A stretch of 64,000 bases of DNA from a virus, in IMG/VR virus record IMGVR_UViG_3300037189_006220, positions 56,519 through 120,518 of that record; one strand, given 5' to 3'. The notes under the pieces were generated by a model. The model was given only the letters and a program-made list of their open reading frames with translations, had not been told where the DNA came from and made no database searches. Made by a program: the position numbers and the translations under genes. Below, in pieces: positions 3,631-8,346 of this stretch (position 1 is its first letter; each line of letters starts with the position of its first letter).

Positions 3631-4578
3631 CTATAGCTTAGATGTTGGCTCGACAAAACGCAAAGCTGAAATCACTCTTGTAACGTCAATAGTTGCAACC
3701 CAAGAAGACAAATCATTTCGTCCGTAGCTGATGACAAACTTGTCTCCGTCTTGTATAAGACCAGAAGCAAACTCAACCCAACCCTCGTGAAAAATAAACT
3801 TATTAGAAATAGCTTCGATGAGTCCATCTTTATTGTGCTTAACAAATACGTGAGAATAACTCCGTAGGTCTAGCGGTTCGTAACTAAATGTTCTTGTATT
3901 GAATAGAACTTTCGGTTTCATTACCATATAGTGACCTACTGACAGGTAGCCATCCTCGAAAGGAATAAGCTGTGTTCCGCCCCGAAGCTTTTCAATTTCT
4001 TCAGGGACATCTCCAAGCTTGATAATTTTTTCGTCTTTAAAAATCTTGTTGGCTCCGTAGATATAGTCAAACCCGGGGACCGACTCTCCGGCAACTACCC
4101 CCCAATTCTTTTCGACTACCTTAGGAGTTTCTGTATCATGCTTTGCAATATATGTAGCCGTACCAGCATCAGGGTCTAGCTCAAATATACCAACTCGCGC
4201 TATCCGAGTATGTTCTTTCTCAAGAATAATCGCAGTAAGTTGCCACTTCCCACCGCGCCAGAACAAACGAGCATCTTCGATGCCACGCTTAAACGCGAGT
4301 TCCCCAATAGTCATAATCTCAATAAGTTTGACTGGCTTATAATTTTCATCAAGCTCAGAGAAGAAGAGTCGGTTAGCTATGTCATTACCAACAGTAATTG
4401 CCTCGTACCTCTGATACTCACCTAGTACATAGTTACTTGAGCGAAAGGTGGCATATAGCTTCCCGTTCGGATGACGAGCAATTGAAGGATTAAAAAGTGA
4501 CCAATGCCTCTTGACCGGCTCTAAGGCCCGGGCAATCATGGACGTAGTGAAGTCACTTGCGTCTATTACATCACTCAT
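3631..4578 (-). CDS. glycosidase-like beta-propeller (GH130/PH1107-like)
   Basis: FNPSI, GIEDARLF, EKNW, LRGGTQ, VEFASGL, ISYG.ND motifs. Confidence 0.7.
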   Translation of the reverse strand: MSDVIDASDFTTSMIARALEPVKRHWSLFNPSIARHPNGKLYATFRSSNYVLGEYQRYEAITVGNDIANRLFFSELDENYKPVKLIEIMTIGELAFKRGIEDARLFWRGGKWQLTAIILEKEHTRIARVGIFELDPDAGTATYIAKHDTETPKVVEKNWGVVAGESVPGFDYIYGANKIFKDEKIIKLGDVPEEIEKLRGGTQLIPFEDGYLSVGHYMVMKPKVLFNTRTFSYEPLDLRSYSHVFVKHNKDGLIEAISNKFIFHEGWVEFASGLIQDGDKFVISYGRNDLSSWVATIDVTRVISALRFVEPTSKL

Positions 4579-4585
4579 AGTACCT

Positions 4586-4601
4586 ATTCTACCGTTACAC
4601 T
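4586..4601. promoter_or_regulatory. back-to-back leaderless -10 promoters
   Basis: Minus TAGAAT-7nt-ATG(4578); plus TACACT-6nt-ATG(4608). Confidence 0.6.
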
Positions 4602-4607
4602 AGAGTC

Positions 4608-4829
4608 ATGGAAGAAAAGCTCACGTCTCTTGACCGTTGCGATAGTTGTGGTGCTCAAGCCTATGTCCGTGTCAACCTCGAAAGTGGAGAACTACTCTTC
4701 TGCGGTCACCACTTTAAAAAGAATGAAGACACGCTTGTTCTTAAAGCCGTAAGTATTGACAGCGAACTAGACAAGCTTTACCCAGAACCTAAGGCTAAAA
4801 CTCAGCCAGAACCTCAGGTAGTAGAATAG
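4608..4829 (+). CDS. small actinobacterial zinc-binding protein
   Basis: LT.LDRCD.CGAQAYVRV.L.SGELLFCGHH pattern. Confidence 0.8.
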   Translation: MEEKLTSLDRCDSCGAQAYVRVNLESGELLFCGHHFKKNEDTLVLKAVSIDSELDKLYPEPKAKTQPEPQVVE

Positions 4830-4889
4830 AAATGTGAAAACGCAAGTTTTCCGACATGAGTAATTTCGCTACCTACTCACATAAAATCG

Positions 4890-4950
4890 CCATCCCCCTC
4901 CATCTGGTTGAGTACCACTCCTAGAATATGTGAGGGGGATGGTGTTTTCT
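4890..4950 (+). terminator. stem-loop, probable terminator
   Basis: CCATCCCCCTC/GAGGGGGATGG 11-bp stem followed by TGTTTTCT. Confidence 0.5.
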
Positions 4951-4992
4951 TGACAAAAAATATGTCATGTCTTTTTAAGTTATTTAACATAT

Positions 4993-5020
4993 TTATTCTC
5001 ACTAAGCTTAATGAGAATAA
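4993..5020. repeat. 28-bp near-perfect palindrome
   Basis: TTATTCTCACTAAG|CTTAATGAGAATAA, one mismatch. Confidence 0.85.
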
Positions 5021-5086
5021 GCTGACAATAAATAATTATTATATAAGTTTTAGTGATTGTCTCGGTCTGTTGAGCAGCTCAGAATT

Positions 5087-5095
5087 TGCTAAAAT
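5087..5095 (+). promoter_or_regulatory. extended -10 promoter of RNR locus
   Basis: TGCTAAAAT upstream of micro-ORF. Confidence 0.5.
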
Positions 5096-5165
5096 AGAAG
5101 AACAAACAATCCCCCTCTTGACCAAGAAATTGGTCATTTTTCTTCTGCCCTGAAAGGTCACAAAC

Positions 5166-5249
5166 ATGAATGAATCACAAGACACCGTTGGCGGATACTG
5201 CATCCCCGTAGACCCGATGGACATGCTTCAGTGCGATTCCTGCCAGTAA
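5166..5249 (+). CDS. 27-aa peptide resembling the redox CxxC C-terminal tail of NrdA
   Basis: Not in ORF track; MNESQDTVGGYCIPVDPMDMLQCDSCQ, RBS GAAAGG at 5152-5157. Confidence 0.75.
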   Translation: MNESQDTVGGYCIPVDPMDMLQCDSCQ

Positions 5250-5270
5250 GAATCTAACCCTCGGGTTAAC

Positions 5271-5313
5271 GCCCGGTGCTCCTCGTAGTAGAGTTGAGTA
5301 CCGGGCTTCTTTC
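5271..5313 (+). terminator. intrinsic terminator after micro-ORF
   Basis: GCCCGGTGCTC/GAGTACCGGGC stem + TTCTTTC. Confidence 0.6.
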
Positions 5314-5338
5314 ACCCCTCTAAGACAGCTAGGACATA

Positions 5339-6271
5339 ATGTACGCCCCTGAAACTCTGGTCTTGACATCGTCAGGACACAAGCCTCTTAGTGAGCTTGA
5401 TGGACACATGGTGGACGTATGGAATGGCGAAGAGTTTTCGCTAGTCCTAGTTGGACAGGCTGGAAAAGATAAGCCTCTAGTTACCGTTGTCTTTGATACC
5501 GGAGCAGAGATTACCTGCACTCCAGACCAAACGATGTTTGTCCAGAATGGATACTTCGACCACACAATTTCTCGTAAGCGAGTTGCAGAAGCACTGCCCG
5601 GAGAAAAGATTGTTAAGTCCGAGTTCCCACTCTTAGAGCACGGCACTGAGCTAATTCCTAATGCTTACACCCACGGCTTCTACACAGGAGCAGAACGGTT
5701 TAAGCGTCGCCCCGGAGTTGTATCAAGACTCGCTATCTATGGTGGTCGCAGACCATGTCTAGATGAGCTTGACCTAGACCCTCGGACAGATAAGACTAAC
5801 CTCTACTTCACTACAGAAATGCTTGGAGACTTCGAGGTTCCACTCAGCACTAAGTACTCACTAGAGTCCAAGCTTGAGTGGCTAGCTGGACTTTTTGATA
5901 GTGGTCTTATTAAAAGAAAAATTGGTTCACAACCAATGTGGCATCTCTACTCAAACAACTTTCAGTTTCTTAAAGACATGAAACTTTTCATGCAGACTTT
6001 GGGAAGCGATGTTCGAGTAGTAAAAAACGAAGATATGAACCGTCTTGAATACACACTACGGTTCTCTGGAAGACCGATGCAGAACTTACGAAAGCTCGGA
6101 GTCCCAGCAAAGTATATCACCATCCCTGAAGTATCTTACAAACGACGTGGAGTTGGTTATCCACGAATTGTGAGCATCATCGACAACAACCGCCGTGACA
6201 CGGTTTACACGCTCATGGAAAAGAAAACTCACCGAGCAGTGTTCAACGGCATCTTAAACGCAACCCAATAA
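5339..6271 (+). CDS. free-standing degenerate RIR1-type intein (Hint + LAGLIDADG)
   Basis: YAPETLVLT..VWNGEEFS..CTPD..YTHGF..EWLAGLFD..H.AVFNGIL follows RNR (RIR1) intein blocks; own ATG, AGGA RBS, in-frame TAG upstream, own stop. Confidence 0.85.
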   Translation: MYAPETLVLTSSGHKPLSELDGHMVDVWNGEEFSLVLVGQAGKDKPLVTVVFDTGAEITCTPDQTMFVQNGYFDHTISRKRVAEALPGEKIVKSEFPLLEHGTELIPNAYTHGFYTGAERFKRRPGVVSRLAIYGGRRPCLDELDLDPRTDKTNLYFTTEMLGDFEVPLSTKYSLESKLEWLAGLFDSGLIKRKIGSQPMWHLYSNNFQFLKDMKLFMQTLGSDVRVVKNEDMNRLEYTLRFSGRPMQNLRKLGVPAKYITIPEVSYKRRGVGYPRIVSIIDNNRRDTVYTLMEKKTHRAVFNGILNATQ

Positions 6272-6290
6272 CTAACAAGGAGAAACAACA

Positions 6291-7280
6291 ATGGCAATTC
6301 TAGGAACCGGCATCCAAGAGGGACTCCTCCTGAAGCCAGTCAAATATCAGTGGGCAATGGACTTGTACGACCAAGCAGTTGCCAATACTTGGTTCCCCAA
6401 CGAAATCCAACTAGGCGAAGACATCGCTGACTTCAAAAAGATGTCTGAGGATGAGCAACACGCTATTACGTTCTTGATGTCATTCTTTAACCCATCAGAG
6501 CTTATTGTGAATAAGGCTCTTGCCTTCGGTGTCTACCCTTACCTAAATGCACCCGAGTGCCACCTCTACCTTGCTAAGCAGATGTGGGAAGAAGCAAACC
6601 ACTGCATGTCGTTCGAGTACGTCCTTGAGACGTTCCCTGTAGACCGTAAGAAAATTTATGAACAGCATGTTGCTGTAGACAGCATCAAAGCCAAGGAAGA
6701 CTTCGAGGTCAAGTTCATTAAGCGCATGACCGAAGATACCATTGACATCAACACCGTAGAGGGAAAGCAGGACTTCGTCCGCAACCTCGTGGCTTACTCG
6801 GTCATCATGGAGGGTATCTGGTTCTACTCGGGCTTCATGGTGGCTCTGAGCTTCCGTCAGCGCAACCTACTTCGTAACTTTGCCTCACTGGTGGACTGGA
6901 TTGTCCGTGACGAGAGCCTTCACCTCAAGTTTGGTATCAACCTCATTCTTGAGGTACTCAACGAGAATCCTGAAATTGTCACAGACGAGTTCGCAGCCGA
7001 GATTCAGCAGATGATTTTTGATGCTGTTGACATGGAGATTACCTACAACAAGGAGCAGTTCCCCAACGGTATCCTTGGACTCAACGCTGACTATGTTAGC
7101 CAATACACCAAGTACCTCGCTGACCGCCGTCTTGAGGAGCTTGGATTCCCCCCACACTACAACGTGGGTAACCCTGCTAAGTGGATGGCTGCGGCTAATG
7201 ATACTCTTCAGCTTGTGAACTTCTTTGAGTCCACCAACACAAGCTATGAATCAAACGCATCAGCTGCTACTGGTAAGTAG
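6291..7280 (+). CDS. nrdB: ribonucleotide reductase beta subunit, class Ic-like
   Basis: W.P.EI, EEANH, EGIWFYSGF, RDESLH, NFFE..Y motifs; RBS AAGGAG. Confidence 0.95.
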   Translation: MAILGTGIQEGLLLKPVKYQWAMDLYDQAVANTWFPNEIQLGEDIADFKKMSEDEQHAITFLMSFFNPSELIVNKALAFGVYPYLNAPECHLYLAKQMWEEANHCMSFEYVLETFPVDRKKIYEQHVAVDSIKAKEDFEVKFIKRMTEDTIDINTVEGKQDFVRNLVAYSVIMEGIWFYSGFMVALSFRQRNLLRNFASLVDWIVRDESLHLKFGINLILEVLNENPEIVTDEFAAEIQQMIFDAVDMEITYNKEQFPNGILGLNADYVSQYTKYLADRRLEELGFPPHYNVGNPAKWMAAANDTLQLVNFFESTNTSYESNASAATGK

Positions 7281-7320
7281 TAAGTGATAGGCTCTTTAAA
7301 GAGTCAGTTGCTTTACCAAT

Positions 7321-7355
7321 AAGAAAGCCCCCACCAATCGGTAGGGGCTTTTCTT
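7321..7355. terminator. bidirectional terminator
   Basis: AAGAAAGCCCC/GGGGCTTTTCTT between convergent genes. Confidence 0.75.
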
Positions 7356-7362
7356 ATGCTTG

Positions 7363-8346
7363 CTACTTAGTCTGCGTAATCCGCACAACTTCGTAGTCTG
7401 GATACCAGATGGGGTGAAGACCAATAGTCTTACCGTCATTAGGAGAGTCGAGCATAAGCCCGTTTCCAGCCCAGAACCCAATGTGACCCGGCATATAGAC
7501 AAGGTCACCTAGACGAGCCTCTGAGCGAGGGATAACCCTATTTTGGTCACGCTGAACTCGCGCACCATGATAGAGGTCAATCCCAAACTTAGAGTACACA
7601 TACTTAGTGAATCCAGAGCAATCGAACCCATAAGCAACATACTTTGTTGAGCGGTAAGGCACTCCCTGATATTTCATTGCTTCATCAAACACTGGAGAGA
7701 CTCCAACCTTAGGCATAGCAAATACACCAGCATATGTATCTATAACCACATCAACTGTATCTCTATGCCAAGCACGAGGATTACCGCTAGTAACTACGAT
7801 TTGCCCCGGCTCATATGTATCTGCCCATGCGCTCTGATGACTTGATACAACAAGTCCCAAACCAATAAGCAACGCAGATACACCAGTTACAGCCCATGTA
7901 CGGCTACGAAAACGGCTTAGAAATGCTACCGGAACTGTTCCCGGAGAGTCACTGCTAATGCTCTCAGAAGCCGTCTCAGGGCTGATTAAGTCCTGTTCTA
8001 CAGCTTCTTTTACTCTCTCAATGACAGTCTGCCCAATTGCATGAGTAATGGTTCCAGAATCAAATTCACTGAAAACACTCTCAACTGCTTGAACAGCATC
8101 TGAGACAATACTATCGGCTACCTCTTTGGTAACCTCTTCCATTGTTCCAATTCCAACAACGGACTTTAGACAGTCGGACTGCCATCTTGCTAGTCCAACA
8201 CCAGAAGCATCAGCCCCGACTACTTTTTCGTAGTCCTTACGTGCCCTGTCTAGCACGTAACTGGTTCTGTCAGAAACAGCTTCGCTGGAGTTAAATCTCC
8301 ATTTAGTTCGTAGCTGTTCGAGTTCGGATTTTTGTTTCTTATTCAC
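7363..8346 (-). CDS. membrane-anchored NlpC/P60 peptidoglycan endopeptidase
   Basis: C-terminal GVPY, FDCSGF, GDLV, GHIG; central TM segment. Confidence 0.85.
   Translation of the reverse strand: MNKKQKSELEQLRTKWRFNSSEAVSDRTSYVLDRARKDYEKVVGADASGVGLARWQSDCLKSVVGIGTMEEVTKEVADSIVSDAVQAVESVFSEFDSGTITHAIGQTVIERVKEAVEQDLISPETASESISSDSPGTVPVAFLSRFRSRTWAVTGVSALLIGLGLVVSSHQSAWADTYEPGQIVVTSGNPRAWHRDTVDVVIDTYAGVFAMPKVGVSPVFDEAMKYQGVPYRSTKYVAYGFDCSGFTKYVYSKFGIDLYHGARVQRDQNRVIPRSEARLGDLVYMPGHIGFWAGNGLMLDSPNDGKTIGLHPIWYPDYEVVRITQTK

What the first reader, a model, noticed from the sequence alone, without database searches (positions are those of the whole stretch)
5339..6271. Domesticated intein lacking both splicing and endonuclease catalytic residues
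Seen: intact 310-aa ORF with no exteins. Compared from memory with RIR1 inteins, Cys1 is replaced by the start Met, block B TPxH is TPDQ, LAGLIDADG motif 1 is GFYTGAE (not GDG), motif 2 is LAGLFDSGL (not DADG), and the end is NATQ-stop. Known: WhiA and yeast HO are domesticated LAGLIDADG/intein derivatives. Inference: selective loss of catalytic residues with the frame preserved suggests a DNA-binding or regulatory role rather than decay.
Basis: partly seen in the sequence, partly recalled or inferred. Interest (0 to 1): 0.82.

Follow-up and report, generated by a model that had tools for sequence, protein, structure and literature searches.

The report
Stand-alone dead intein gene in phage
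This phage gene encodes a complete former intein (a self-splicing protein insert of the ribonucleotide reductase large subunit) that now stands alone, can no longer splice, lacks the usual DNA-cutting residues, and is still kept intact by selection in a whole family of related phages.

Summary
ORF 5339-6271 encodes a 310-aa protein that is a whole intein (Hint + LAGLIDADG domains; AF2 pLDDT 94; Z 22 to TliVMA intein) with no exteins. The 120.5-kb phage record has no RNR large-subunit gene at all.

It is one of at least 36 stand-alone homologues (35-67% identical). None of the 36 has Cys1, the block F Cys, or an acid at either canonical LAGLIDADG position. They form one clade. Its sister is a real in-frame nrdA intein that can still splice but already carries the same altered nuclease motifs.

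Selection is purifying (dN/dS 0.09; 0.014-0.036 for the nuclease-like part of the in-frame sister). However, the gene is accessory: only 5 of 25 related nrdB loci carry it, and its presence is scattered on the NrdB tree. It always follows a small gene for an RNR-tail-like CxxC peptide and precedes nrdA or nrdB.

Best reading: a remodelled, probably non-cleaving nucleic-acid-binding ex-intein. Main rival: a WHO/HO-like stand-alone homing (nicking) element. I found no phage or prokaryotic counterpart in print. This scan's first readers noted the same family in another genome, and follow-up agents reported analogous stand-alone ex-inteins elsewhere.

The parts
5339..6271 (+). Stand-alone ex-intein gene (310 aa plus stop)
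   Evidence: ORF. Homology to nrdA inteins. Family of stand-alone homologues. AF2 model and fold matches.
5339..5653 (+). Hint N-lobe (about residues 1-105). Met1 in the Cys1 column; block B reads T-P-D-Q.
   Evidence: Alignment columns. Strands E7-E81 of the model. The domain limits are my estimate from the model.
5654..6124 (+). LAGLIDADG-derived two-lobe domain (about residues 106-262), the most constrained part
   Evidence: Helices H109-117 and H175-189 of the model. dN/dS 0.064 in L003 vs L004 and 0.014-0.036 in the in-frame sister intein.
5666..5695 (+). Motif 1, YTHGFYTGAE. Ala118 is in the canonical acid column; Glu119 is invariant in the family.
   Evidence: Acid column: D/E in 24 of 26 canonical, 0 of 36 stand-alone, 0 of 3 sister inteins. 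Next column: E in 36 of 36 and 3 of 3, against 1 of 26 canonical.
5879..5920 (+). Motif 2, WLAGLFDSGLIKRK. Gly189 is in the canonical Asp column, followed by a conserved K-R-K.
   Evidence: D in 24 of 26 canonical; G in 36 of 36 stand-alone and 3 of 3 sister. R193 in 36 of 36, K192 in 32 of 36, K194 in 33 of 36.
6125..6268 (+). Hint C-lobe (about residues 263-310). The block F Cys column holds Thr291; the protein ends ...FNGILNATQ.
   Evidence: Block F Cys in 26 of 26 canonical and 0 of 36 stand-alone. Terminal Gln/Asn column: 26 of 26 canonical; 4 of 36 stand-alone have N.
5331..5334 (+). Shine-Dalgarno-like AGGA, 4 nt before the ATG
   Evidence: Read from the sequence. Inferred, not tested.
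5272..5305 (+). Hairpin between the peptide gene and the ex-intein gene, enclosing a TAGAGT -10-like hexamer (possible own promoter)
   Evidence: Read by eye in the window and in 7 related loci. The sigma-70 consensus scan did not list it. Inference only.
5166..5249 (+). Conserved 27-aa gene for an RNR-large-subunit-tail-like CxxC peptide, always directly upstream of the ex-intein (context)
   Evidence: Found in every stand-alone or sister locus with upstream sequence and in no canonical-intein locus. Its end resembles the C..CxSCQ-stop ends of other NrdA proteins.
6291..7280 (+). nrdB (RNR small subunit), 19 nt after the ex-intein stop (context)
   Evidence: Pfam Ribonuc_red_sm E 5e-76. NCBIfam NF007186, 379 bits.

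Best explanation
The gene encodes a former class 1 LAGLIDADG intein of the ribonucleotide reductase large subunit. The insertion site was before the Cys of the N-L-C-(S/T)-E-I motif, which I recall as the thiyl-radical cysteine. The intein has been set free as a gene of its own and cannot splice: it has no exteins, no Cys1, no block F Cys and no downstream nucleophile.

Its endonuclease-derived domain was remodelled while it was still an in-frame intein. The motif 2 Asp became Gly. The motif 1 acid was lost, and an invariant Glu now sits one residue later. A K-R-K was fixed just after motif 2, and a stretch of about 17 residues in the second LAGLIDADG lobe was deleted.

My preferred mechanism is inferred, not shown. 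The protein is a sequence-specific nucleic-acid-binding protein that no longer makes double-strand cuts. The Hint fold is kept as scaffold and clamp, as in PI-SceI-type inteins. The protein is expressed from the RNR operon, behind the tail-peptide gene, as an optional accessory gene that is exchanged among related phages by recombination between the conserved flanks.

Shown: ancestry, loss of the catalytic residues, purifying selection, fixed position, patchy distribution. Inferred: binding without cleavage, and the target.
For: Ancestry and fold. tblastn to nrdA inteins. AF2 pLDDT 94.3. Z 22.0/21.1/19.9/19.0 over residues 1-309 to TliVMA, PI-TkoII, PI-PfuI and PI-SceI.

Family. 28 full-length proteins of 310-326 aa plus loci, 36 distinct sequences in all. 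In an exhaustive profile search, 6 full-length representative clusters score 358-489 bits, followed by a drop to embedded inteins at 268 bits or less.

Phylogeny. The 36 stand-alone rows are one side of a branch (SH-aLRT 99). Their sister is the 3 in-frame L006-type inteins, and the two together (98) stand apart from 26 canonical inteins.

Residue losses. Cys1 0 of 36, block F Cys 0 of 36, motif 1 acid 0 of 36, motif 2 acid 0 of 36. The in-frame sister keeps all splicing residues (3 of 3) but has the same motif 1 and motif 2 states (3 of 3).

Selection. L003 vs L004: dN/dS 0.093 at dS 0.57, and 0.064 in the nuclease-derived part. Nuclease-derived part of the in-frame sister: 0.014-0.036, that is 29-34 synonymous against 2-5 non-synonymous changes, as tight as the NrdA exteins.

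Newly fixed residues. Basic and other residues are conserved in the clade but not in canonical inteins: R130, R137, K192, R193, K215, R241 and others.

Fixed position. Syntenic loci read DUF7455 - peptide - X - nrdB, in three forms: intein inside nrdA (3 contigs), stand-alone + nrdA + nrdB (5 distinct), and stand-alone + nrdB (7 contigs including the window).

No decaying copies. 0 of 19 loci without the gene show a fragment of it at E 1e-5 or better.
Against: No binding was tested and no target was found. The own genome holds no sequence like the ancestral homing site (best 19 of 30, equal to shuffled queries).

Net charge does not set the family apart. Median pI is 6.68 for the family against 7.03 for canonical inteins.

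The patchy distribution also fits an active homing element, and perhaps fits it better. Only 5 of 25 related nrdB loci carry the gene. Its presence needs 7 changes on a 26-row NrdB tree, against a shuffled mean of 8.2. An empty-site relative, L063, differs from the window by a clean indel that ends at the ex-intein stop codon. L047 and L049 have NrdB 95% identical but ex-inteins only 56% identical.

Glu119 is invariant (36 of 36) next to the lost acid and could still bind a metal.

The tree is a 'quick' search with SH-aLRT support only, and its root is assumed to lie among the canonical inteins.

Confidence: 0.5

Rival explanations
1. It is a still-mobile, stand-alone homing element, a phage counterpart of the yeast WHO elements and HO. 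The ex-intein nicks or cuts with a non-canonical active site built around Glu119 and nearby Lys/Arg. Its target would be related phage genomes that lack it, either in nrdA or at the peptide-nrdB junction. Repair from the donor would then copy the gene in. Where the donor has no nrdA, this would replace the recipient's nrdA.
For: Presence/absence among close relatives with a clean empty site (L063). Only 5 of 25 nrdB-seeded loci carry it. Its presence is scattered on the NrdB tree: 7 changes, no fewer than in 118 of 500 shuffles. The ex-intein and NrdB trees disagree, and the cassette diverges strongly between conserved flanks: L047/L049 are 56% against 95% identical. No decaying copies were found. 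Purifying selection acts on the nuclease-derived part even in the in-frame sister. Glu119 is invariant. Every nrdA-bearing locus of this phage group whose upstream sequence could be read carries either the intein or the stand-alone gene. That is 3 of 3 in the NrdB-seeded set. The NrdA-seeded scan found only the same 3 contigs again among close relatives. WHO elements set the precedent for extein-less intein-like genes that home beside a target gene (PMC7282813, passages read).
Against: The motif 2 acid column is Gly in 36 of 36 stand-alone rows and in all 3 sister inteins, and the motif 1 acid is displaced. From recall, every characterised LAGLIDADG nuclease has an acid in both motifs, and loss of one abolishes or at best halves cleavage. 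A Lys conserved in 25 of 26 canonical inteins, about 25 residues before motif 2, survives in only 2 of 36 stand-alone rows. An Arg conserved in 24 of 26 is not the commonest residue in the family, where the top residue reaches only 22%. The second lobe lost about 17 residues. The three in-frame sister loci show equal divergence of intein and exteins (92.7-95.5% nt), so there is no sign of recent homing. L003 vs L004 likewise: ex-intein 87.1% nt, nrdB 89.0% nt.
Confidence: 0.25
2. It acts at the protein level in the RNR system. For example, it could bind NrdB, a host NrdA or the CxxC tail peptide, and so modulate nucleotide reduction, rather than bind nucleic acid.
For: It is always encoded in the RNR operon, directly after the tail-peptide gene and before nrdA or nrdB. 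It is kept in phages that have lost nrdA (window). The in-frame ancestor was made in equal amounts with NrdA.
Against: Most related phages have peptide + nrdB, or nrdB alone, without it (19 of 25), so the RNR parts do not need it. L053 keeps it with no nrdB of this type next to it. The most constrained part is the DNA-binding-derived domain. No interaction was tested; I did not run complex prediction because neighbourhood alone did not justify the job.
Confidence: 0.1
3. It is a functionless remnant left when the nrdA exteins were deleted, not yet decayed.
For: The window's phage has no nrdA. The catalytic residues are gone. The gene is dispensable in most relatives.
Against: There are 36 intact, full-length sequences only 35-67% identical to one another. 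dN/dS is 0.09 at dS 0.57. Many positions are newly conserved in the clade. No truncated or frameshifted copies turned up in the loci examined. In 5 distinct loci the gene stands in front of an intact, intein-less nrdA, an arrangement that a simple extein deletion cannot produce.
Confidence: 0.05

Closest known systems
In-frame nrdA (RIR1) LAGLIDADG inteins at the N-L-C|(S/T)-E-I site of phage and giant-virus RNR large subunits, e.g. Corynebacterium phage Darwin and Vibrio phage ICP1, and especially the L006-type inteins of the same phage group
   Same: Homologous over the whole length: 27-33% identity to canonical members and 39% to the L006 type. Same two-domain fold. The relatives end in T-G-Q, and the window ends ...T-Q. 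The L006 type shares the altered motifs 1 and 2, the K-R-K and the deletion of about 17 residues.
   Different: No exteins. Cys1, block F Cys, block B His (in the window) and the +1 nucleophile are all lost. It is a separate gene with its own ribosome-binding site. A conserved Lys and a conserved Arg of the nuclease domain are also lost.
HO endonuclease and WHO elements of budding yeasts (Coughlan et al. 2020, PMC7282813, passages read; 2026 bioRxiv preprint on WHO elements, seen only as a search listing)
   Same: An intein-like protein encoded as a stand-alone gene with no exteins and no splicing. It sits beside a conserved metabolic gene, its presence is polymorphic among relatives, and its alleles are very divergent.
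   Different: HO and WHO carry a C-terminal zinc-finger domain and are active nucleases according to that paper. WHO clusters hold many pseudogenes and fragments of the target gene. Here the protein ends where the intein ends, the canonical acids are missing, no pseudogenes or nrdA fragments were seen, and the host is a phage.
Free-standing homing endonuclease genes next to nrd genes in T4-like phages, e.g. mobE between nrdA and nrdB (PMC2790892, seen as listing and abstract)
   Same: An optional gene wedged between conserved RNR genes of phages, with patchy distribution.
   Different: Those are HNH or GIY-YIG enzymes with no Hint domain and no intein ancestry.
Nuclease-dead LAGLIDADG derivatives such as WhiA and intron maturases (recalled; review PMC3384342 seen only as listing and abstract)
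   Same: A LAGLIDADG scaffold kept without the catalytic acids and used for binding nucleic acid.
   Different: Those have no Hint domain. WhiA has an extra helix-turn-helix domain. Pfam's WhiA-type LAGLIDADG model did not match at E up to 0.1.

Membership tests
Functional class 1 intein (protein-splicing element) | Lies in frame between an N-extein and a C-extein of a host protein | tested here: not met
   The ORF starts at the Cys1 column and stops at or one residue after the intein end. No RNR large-subunit sequence exists anywhere in the 120.5-kb record.
Functional class 1 intein (protein-splicing element) | Nucleophile (Cys/Ser/Thr) at position 1 | tested here: not met
   Met in the window. 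Gly 28 and Met 8 of 36 in the family, against Cys in 26 of 26 canonical inteins.
Functional class 1 intein (protein-splicing element) | Block B T-x-x-H | tested here: not met
   The window has T-P-D-Q. His is present in 20 of 36 family members and 26 of 26 canonical inteins.
Functional class 1 intein (protein-splicing element) | C-terminal Asn/Gln followed by a Cys/Ser/Thr | tested here: not met
   A stop codon follows the last residue. The terminal column has N in 4 of 36 and no Q under the MAFFT alignment; the window's last Gln may be the old terminal Gln.
Functional class 1 intein (protein-splicing element) | Hint fold | tested here: met
   Mini-inteins align at Z 18-19.6, rmsd 1.6-2.4 over 120-130 residues.
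Active LAGLIDADG homing endonuclease | Two LAGLIDADG helices in a two-lobe alpha/beta domain | tested here: met
   Helices 109-117 and 175-189 in the model. Whole-length matches to PI-SceI, PI-PfuI, PI-TkoII and TliVMA.
Active LAGLIDADG homing endonuclease | Acidic residue (Asp/Glu) at the end of each LAGLIDADG helix | tested here: not met
   Motif 1 column: 0 of 36 (Ala here). Motif 2 column: Gly in 36 of 36. Canonical relatives have D/E in 24 of 26 and D in 24 of 26. Glu119 lies one position later.
Active LAGLIDADG homing endonuclease | Site-specific DNA cleavage | not testable with these tools
   Needs a cleavage or nicking assay.
HO / WHO-type extein-less intein-derived genes | Stand-alone gene with the intein layout, no exteins, no splicing | tested here: met
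   The definition is taken from PMC7282813.
HO / WHO-type extein-less intein-derived genes | C-terminal zinc-finger domain fused to the intein-like region | tested here: not met
   The protein ends with intein block G. The model is aligned to inteins up to residue 309-310.
HO / WHO-type extein-less intein-derived genes | Sits beside its target gene and is polymorphic among relatives | tested here: inconclusive
   It is always in the RNR operon and is present in 5 of 25 related loci, but the target is unknown.
HO / WHO-type extein-less intein-derived genes | Common descent with the yeast VDE/HO/WHO lineage | tested here: not met
   The family is nested among phage nrdA inteins. PI-SceI is only a fold-level match at 12-13% identity. 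Any likeness to HO/WHO is convergent.

The most novel reading that the evidence does not exclude
An intein took on a second job while it was still an intein. Its nuclease domain was remodelled and then held under selection as tight as that on the enzyme around it. It was later set free as its own gene, and that gene now moves among phages as a cassette. If the invariant Glu119 site still nicks DNA, this would be the first WHO/HO-like 'third class' homing element outside yeasts. Because most relatives lack nrdA, it would spread by replacing its former host gene rather than by residing in it.
Probability: 0.25. Interest if true: 0.85.

Novelty: new variant of a known kind. Interest (0 to 1): 0.66.

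Why it matters
Inteins are usually treated as pure parasites that either home or decay. This phage group preserves three stages side by side:
- an in-frame nrdA intein;
- the same element as a separate gene in front of an intein-less nrdA;
- the separate gene in phages with no nrdA at all.

The nuclease-like domain is under strong purifying selection in the two stages where dN/dS could be measured, the in-frame intein and the stand-alone gene without nrdA. That makes the question "what is an intein good for once it stops homing?" directly testable with one small protein. It also offers a prokaryotic-virus parallel to the origin of yeast HO. In my searches, extein-less intein genes are in print only for yeasts.

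The surrounding locus is also unusual and may bear on how phages boost host nucleotide synthesis. It holds a detached RNR tail peptide and a class Ic-like NrdB, and most relatives have no NrdA.

Tried and rejected
- Remnant exteins or a split nrdA. Pfam PF02867 and a tblastn with Darwin NrdA found nothing in the 120.5-kb record. Rejected.
- Group I intron or other known RNA around the gene. An Rfam scan of 4500-7500 at E up to 1 gave only four sub-threshold chance-level hits.
- Near or distant DNA matches in phage records: none.
- Bacterial or archaeal genomes: no relative found.
- PHROGs: 0 families. NCBIfam: one hit far below its cut-off (17.7 against 1050 bits).
- PDB by sequence: only gp41-1 intein, at E 0.041 and 0.35.
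- Ancestral homing site in the own genome: best 19 of 30, no better than shuffled queries.
- Recent homing of the in-frame sister intein: intein and exteins are equally diverged. No support.
- Charge or pI as a sign of DNA binding: no difference from canonical inteins.
- Sigma-70 consensus scan: no more promoter-like sites than in shuffles (4 against a mean of 3.6). Its only promoter-like match just upstream of the gene (5311-5340) scores 9 of 12, and the count is no higher than in shuffles, so it is no evidence. The promoter-like TAGAGT inside the hairpin is my own reading.
- Expression: no RNA holder listed.
- ESM Atlas: several viral clusters of about 330-aa 'hypothetical proteins' with LAGLIDADG or intein hits. 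These are leads only and were not followed.
- A 'naked' nrdA (no intein, no stand-alone gene) among close relatives: none among 3 informative IMG/VR contigs. The sample is too small to conclude.
- Supplementary files of papers were not opened. The WHO paper's supplements may list residue-level data that I did not see.
Full report
WHAT IS THERE

The window is the right-hand 64 kb of a 120,518-bp virus record with direct terminal repeats. ORF 5339-6271 (+) encodes 310 residues. It lies between a conserved 27-aa ORF (5166-5249) and nrdB (6291-7280; Pfam E 5e-76).

Upstream are a DUF7455 gene (E 2e-22), a 315-aa ORF and a WhiB gene (E 7.8e-18). ThyX and a dCMP deaminase lie nearby. WhiB suggests an actinobacterial host; that is an inference.

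IT IS A WHOLE INTEIN AND NOTHING ELSE

Pfam gives only sub-threshold Intein_splicing and LAGLIDADG_3 hits. PHROGs has no family for it, and NCBIfam has none above its cut-off.

A tblastn search found 305 phage records, 292 of them covering at least 80% of the ORF, at about 30-32% identity in the rows listed. In 32 of the 40 listed rows the annotated feature under the match is an RNR large subunit; 5 are 'hypothetical protein' and 3 records have no annotation. The two I opened are 1022-aa and 1079-aa CDSs next to RNR genes.

In Darwin NrdA the match is exactly the insert between ...S-N-L and C-S-E-I. From recall, that Cys is the thiyl-radical cysteine of class I RNR.

An AF2 model built on a 55-row alignment has pLDDT 94.3 and pTM 0.91. 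It aligns over residues 1-309 with endonuclease-bearing inteins: TliVMA Z 22.0 (rmsd 4.8-4.9, 288-290 residues), PI-TkoII 21.1, PI-PfuI 19.9, PI-SceI 19.0. Foldseek gives E 4.5e-13 for the best match.

The record has no RNR large subunit. PF02867 gave 0 matches, while the control rings in 12 of 14 genomes. Darwin NrdA matches only through its intein.

A FAMILY OF STAND-ALONE COPIES

The word-indexed protein search gave 28 full-length proteins of 310-326 aa, the window's own among them, with the 27 others 39-67% identical to it, plus 3 fragments. Scans of contigs added more. In all I aligned 36 distinct stand-alone sequences.

An exhaustive profile search of 1.84 billion representatives found 6 full-length stand-alone clusters at 358-489 bits and 2 fragments. 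The scores then drop to inteins embedded in proteins of 451-1827 aa, at 268 bits or less. No relative was found in one-genome-per-species prokaryotes.

RESIDUES (36 stand-alone rows, 3 L006-type in-frame inteins, 26 canonical in-frame inteins)

- Cys1: 0 of 36 (Gly 28, Met 8); 3 of 3; 26 of 26.
- Block B His: 20 of 36 (Gln in the window); 3 of 3; 26 of 26.
- Block F Cys: 0 of 36 (Thr in the window); 3 of 3; 26 of 26.
- Terminal Gln/Asn column: N in 4 of 36; Q in 3 of 3; Q 23 + N 3 of 26.
- Motif 1 acid: 0 of 36; 0 of 3; D/E in 24 of 26. The next column is Glu in 36 of 36 and 3 of 3, against 1 of 26.
- Motif 2 acid: Gly in 36 of 36 and 3 of 3; Asp in 24 of 26.

The stand-alone clade and the L006 type also share a K-R-K after motif 2 and the loss of about 17 residues in the second lobe. 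The stand-alone clade alone lost a Lys (K in 25 of 26 canonical, 2 of 36 here) and an Arg (24 of 26 canonical).

The new point is that the nuclease-motif changes predate the release from nrdA.

PHYLOGENY

In a quick maximum-likelihood tree of 65 rows, the 36 stand-alone rows are one side of a branch (SH-aLRT 99). The 3 L006-type inteins are their sister, and the two together (98) are separated from the 26 canonical inteins. The root is assumed to lie among the canonical inteins. No bootstrap or AU test was run.

SELECTION

- L003 vs L004: dS 0.57, dN 0.053, ratio 0.093. By part: Hint-N 0.205, nuclease-derived 0.064, Hint-C 0.043.
- More distant pairs are saturated or nearly so.
- In the three L006-type loci the nuclease-derived part has a ratio of 0.014-0.036 (29-34 synonymous against 2-5 non-synonymous differences). 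That is as low as the NrdA exteins, at 0.008-0.050.

A domain that is useless for splicing is therefore held tightly even inside the intein.

CONTEXT

One syntenic phage group (WhiB - DUF7455 - small peptide gene - X - nrdB) shows three main arrangements:
1. Intein inside nrdA: L006, L052, L054.
2. Stand-alone gene + intein-less 805-aa nrdA + nrdB: L007 (with near-identical L051), L008 (with near-identical L056), L057, L058, L061.
3. Stand-alone gene + nrdB with no nrdA: the window, L003, L004, L005, L046, L047, L049.

L053 has the gene followed by unrelated ORFs. L050 and L059 end at the contig edge.

Arrangement 2 cannot arise by simply deleting exteins.

THE GENE IS ACCESSORY

I seeded a scan with NrdB instead of the ex-intein. 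It returned 25 loci with at least 1.2 kb upstream of nrdB, some of them duplicates (L068/L069, L083/L084, L085/L086, L090/L092). Of these 25, 5 have the stand-alone gene, 1 has the intein and 19 have neither. Only 3 of the 25 have nrdA.

L063 is an empty-site relative of the window. Its peptide gene is 79% identical at the nucleotide level and its nrdB 81%. Homology resumes at the ex-intein stop codon.

On a 26-row NrdB tree, presence of the gene needs 7 changes (shuffled mean 8.2; 118 of 500 shuffles are as low). L047 and L049 have NrdB 95% identical but ex-inteins 56% identical, and the two trees disagree.

No fragment of the gene was seen in the 19 loci without it.

READING

The ancestry, the loss of splicing, the loss of the canonical nuclease acids and the purifying selection are shown. 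The function is not.

I favour a non-cleaving nucleic-acid-binding role (0.5). The reasons are that both canonical acids are gone in all 39 sequences, two further conserved basic residues are lost, and a basic K-R-K was fixed where the scissile phosphate would lie.

The patchy, cassette-like distribution and the invariant Glu119 keep a WHO/HO-like nicking or homing element alive as the main rival (0.25). A protein-level RNR role (0.1) and a neutral relic (0.05) are less likely.

Against my own reading: no target was found and charge is unremarkable.

COMPARISON WITH WHAT IS KNOWN

The closest relatives by descent are phage nrdA inteins. The closest by kind are yeast HO and the WHO elements, which are extein-less, non-splicing intein-like genes beside a target gene (PMC7282813, passages read). 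Those carry a zinc finger and cut DNA, and they are unrelated by descent.

Five literature searches returned no report of an extein-less intein gene in phages or prokaryotes. A 2025 survey of actinophage inteins that I read in passages (10.1101/2025.01.02.630785) describes non-canonical nuclease layouts, but no extein-less form in those passages.

First-reader notes of this scan (e1-6030583, e1-6030597) describe a 316-aa member of the same family in another genome. Follow-up notes report analogous stand-alone ex-inteins beside nrdD, nrdF and nrdA elsewhere. Those are unchecked AI notes, but they suggest that the phenomenon recurs.

VERDICT

This is a new variant of a known kind. Interest is 0.66.

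Noticed in passing
window 5166-5249 (+); also L003-L008, L046-L059, L063, L071-L074, L077, L078, L080: A conserved 27-35-aa gene ending ...P-x-D-P-M-(D/E)-..-C-x-x-C-Q-stop. It precedes the ex-intein, nrdA or nrdB in this phage group. Its end looks like the C-terminal Cys-pair tail of other NrdA proteins, which end ...C-S-I-E-...-C-E-S-C-Q. The group's own NrdA ends ...G-F-G-F-..-K-N with no Cys (3 of 3). It is a candidate detached RNR redox tail supplied in trans.
   Followed up: partly
window 6291-7280; loci L062-L094: Most phages of this group carry nrdB without any nearby nrdA (22 of 25 loci with upstream sequence; the window's complete record has none). The NrdB has Phe where I recall the radical Tyr of class Ia, and Glu at the first metal-ligand place, so it looks class Ic-like. 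The residues were read from the sequence; the class assignment is recalled.
   Followed up: partly
window about 4858-4880, just after the DUF7455 gene; same place in L003, L006-L008, L047, L049, L050, L053, L057: A small hairpin with a conserved loop (..TTCGCTAC..) and stems that differ between loci while staying complementary. It is followed by a C-run/G-run hairpin. A possible structured RNA or terminator element. Seen by eye only.
   Followed up: no
window 5119-5136 (+): A terminator-like hairpin with a T-run in the operon leader, between the conserved promoter-like TGCTA-N-A-N-T element and the peptide gene. The stem sequence G-R-C-C-A-A-G...C-T-T-G-G-T-C is conserved in several relatives. 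A possible attenuator.
   Followed up: no
L009-L034, L060 and L002 (canonical nrdA inteins): The whole intein lineage ends in Gln rather than Asn (Q in 23 of 26). It also carries both Cys1 and a Cys in block F (26 of 26), with Thr three residues before the end (26 of 26). From recall, those features resemble class 3 inteins, although these inteins have Cys1.
   Followed up: no
G002 (contig of L005): L044 and L045: The nrdB of this contig is matched in two adjacent pieces (profile positions 4-157 and 175-281) in separate open frames. This may be a frameshift, an assembly error or a small insert.
   Followed up: no
L053 8834-9811 (-) and beyond: This phage keeps the peptide gene and the ex-intein but not the usual nrdB. 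Instead, a distantly related RNR pair (21% and 26% identity to the queries) lies on the other strand.
   Followed up: no
Related loci have different palindromes at the same place, upstream of the promoter-like element, so it may be a variable operator. No link to the ex-intein was tested.
   Followed up: no
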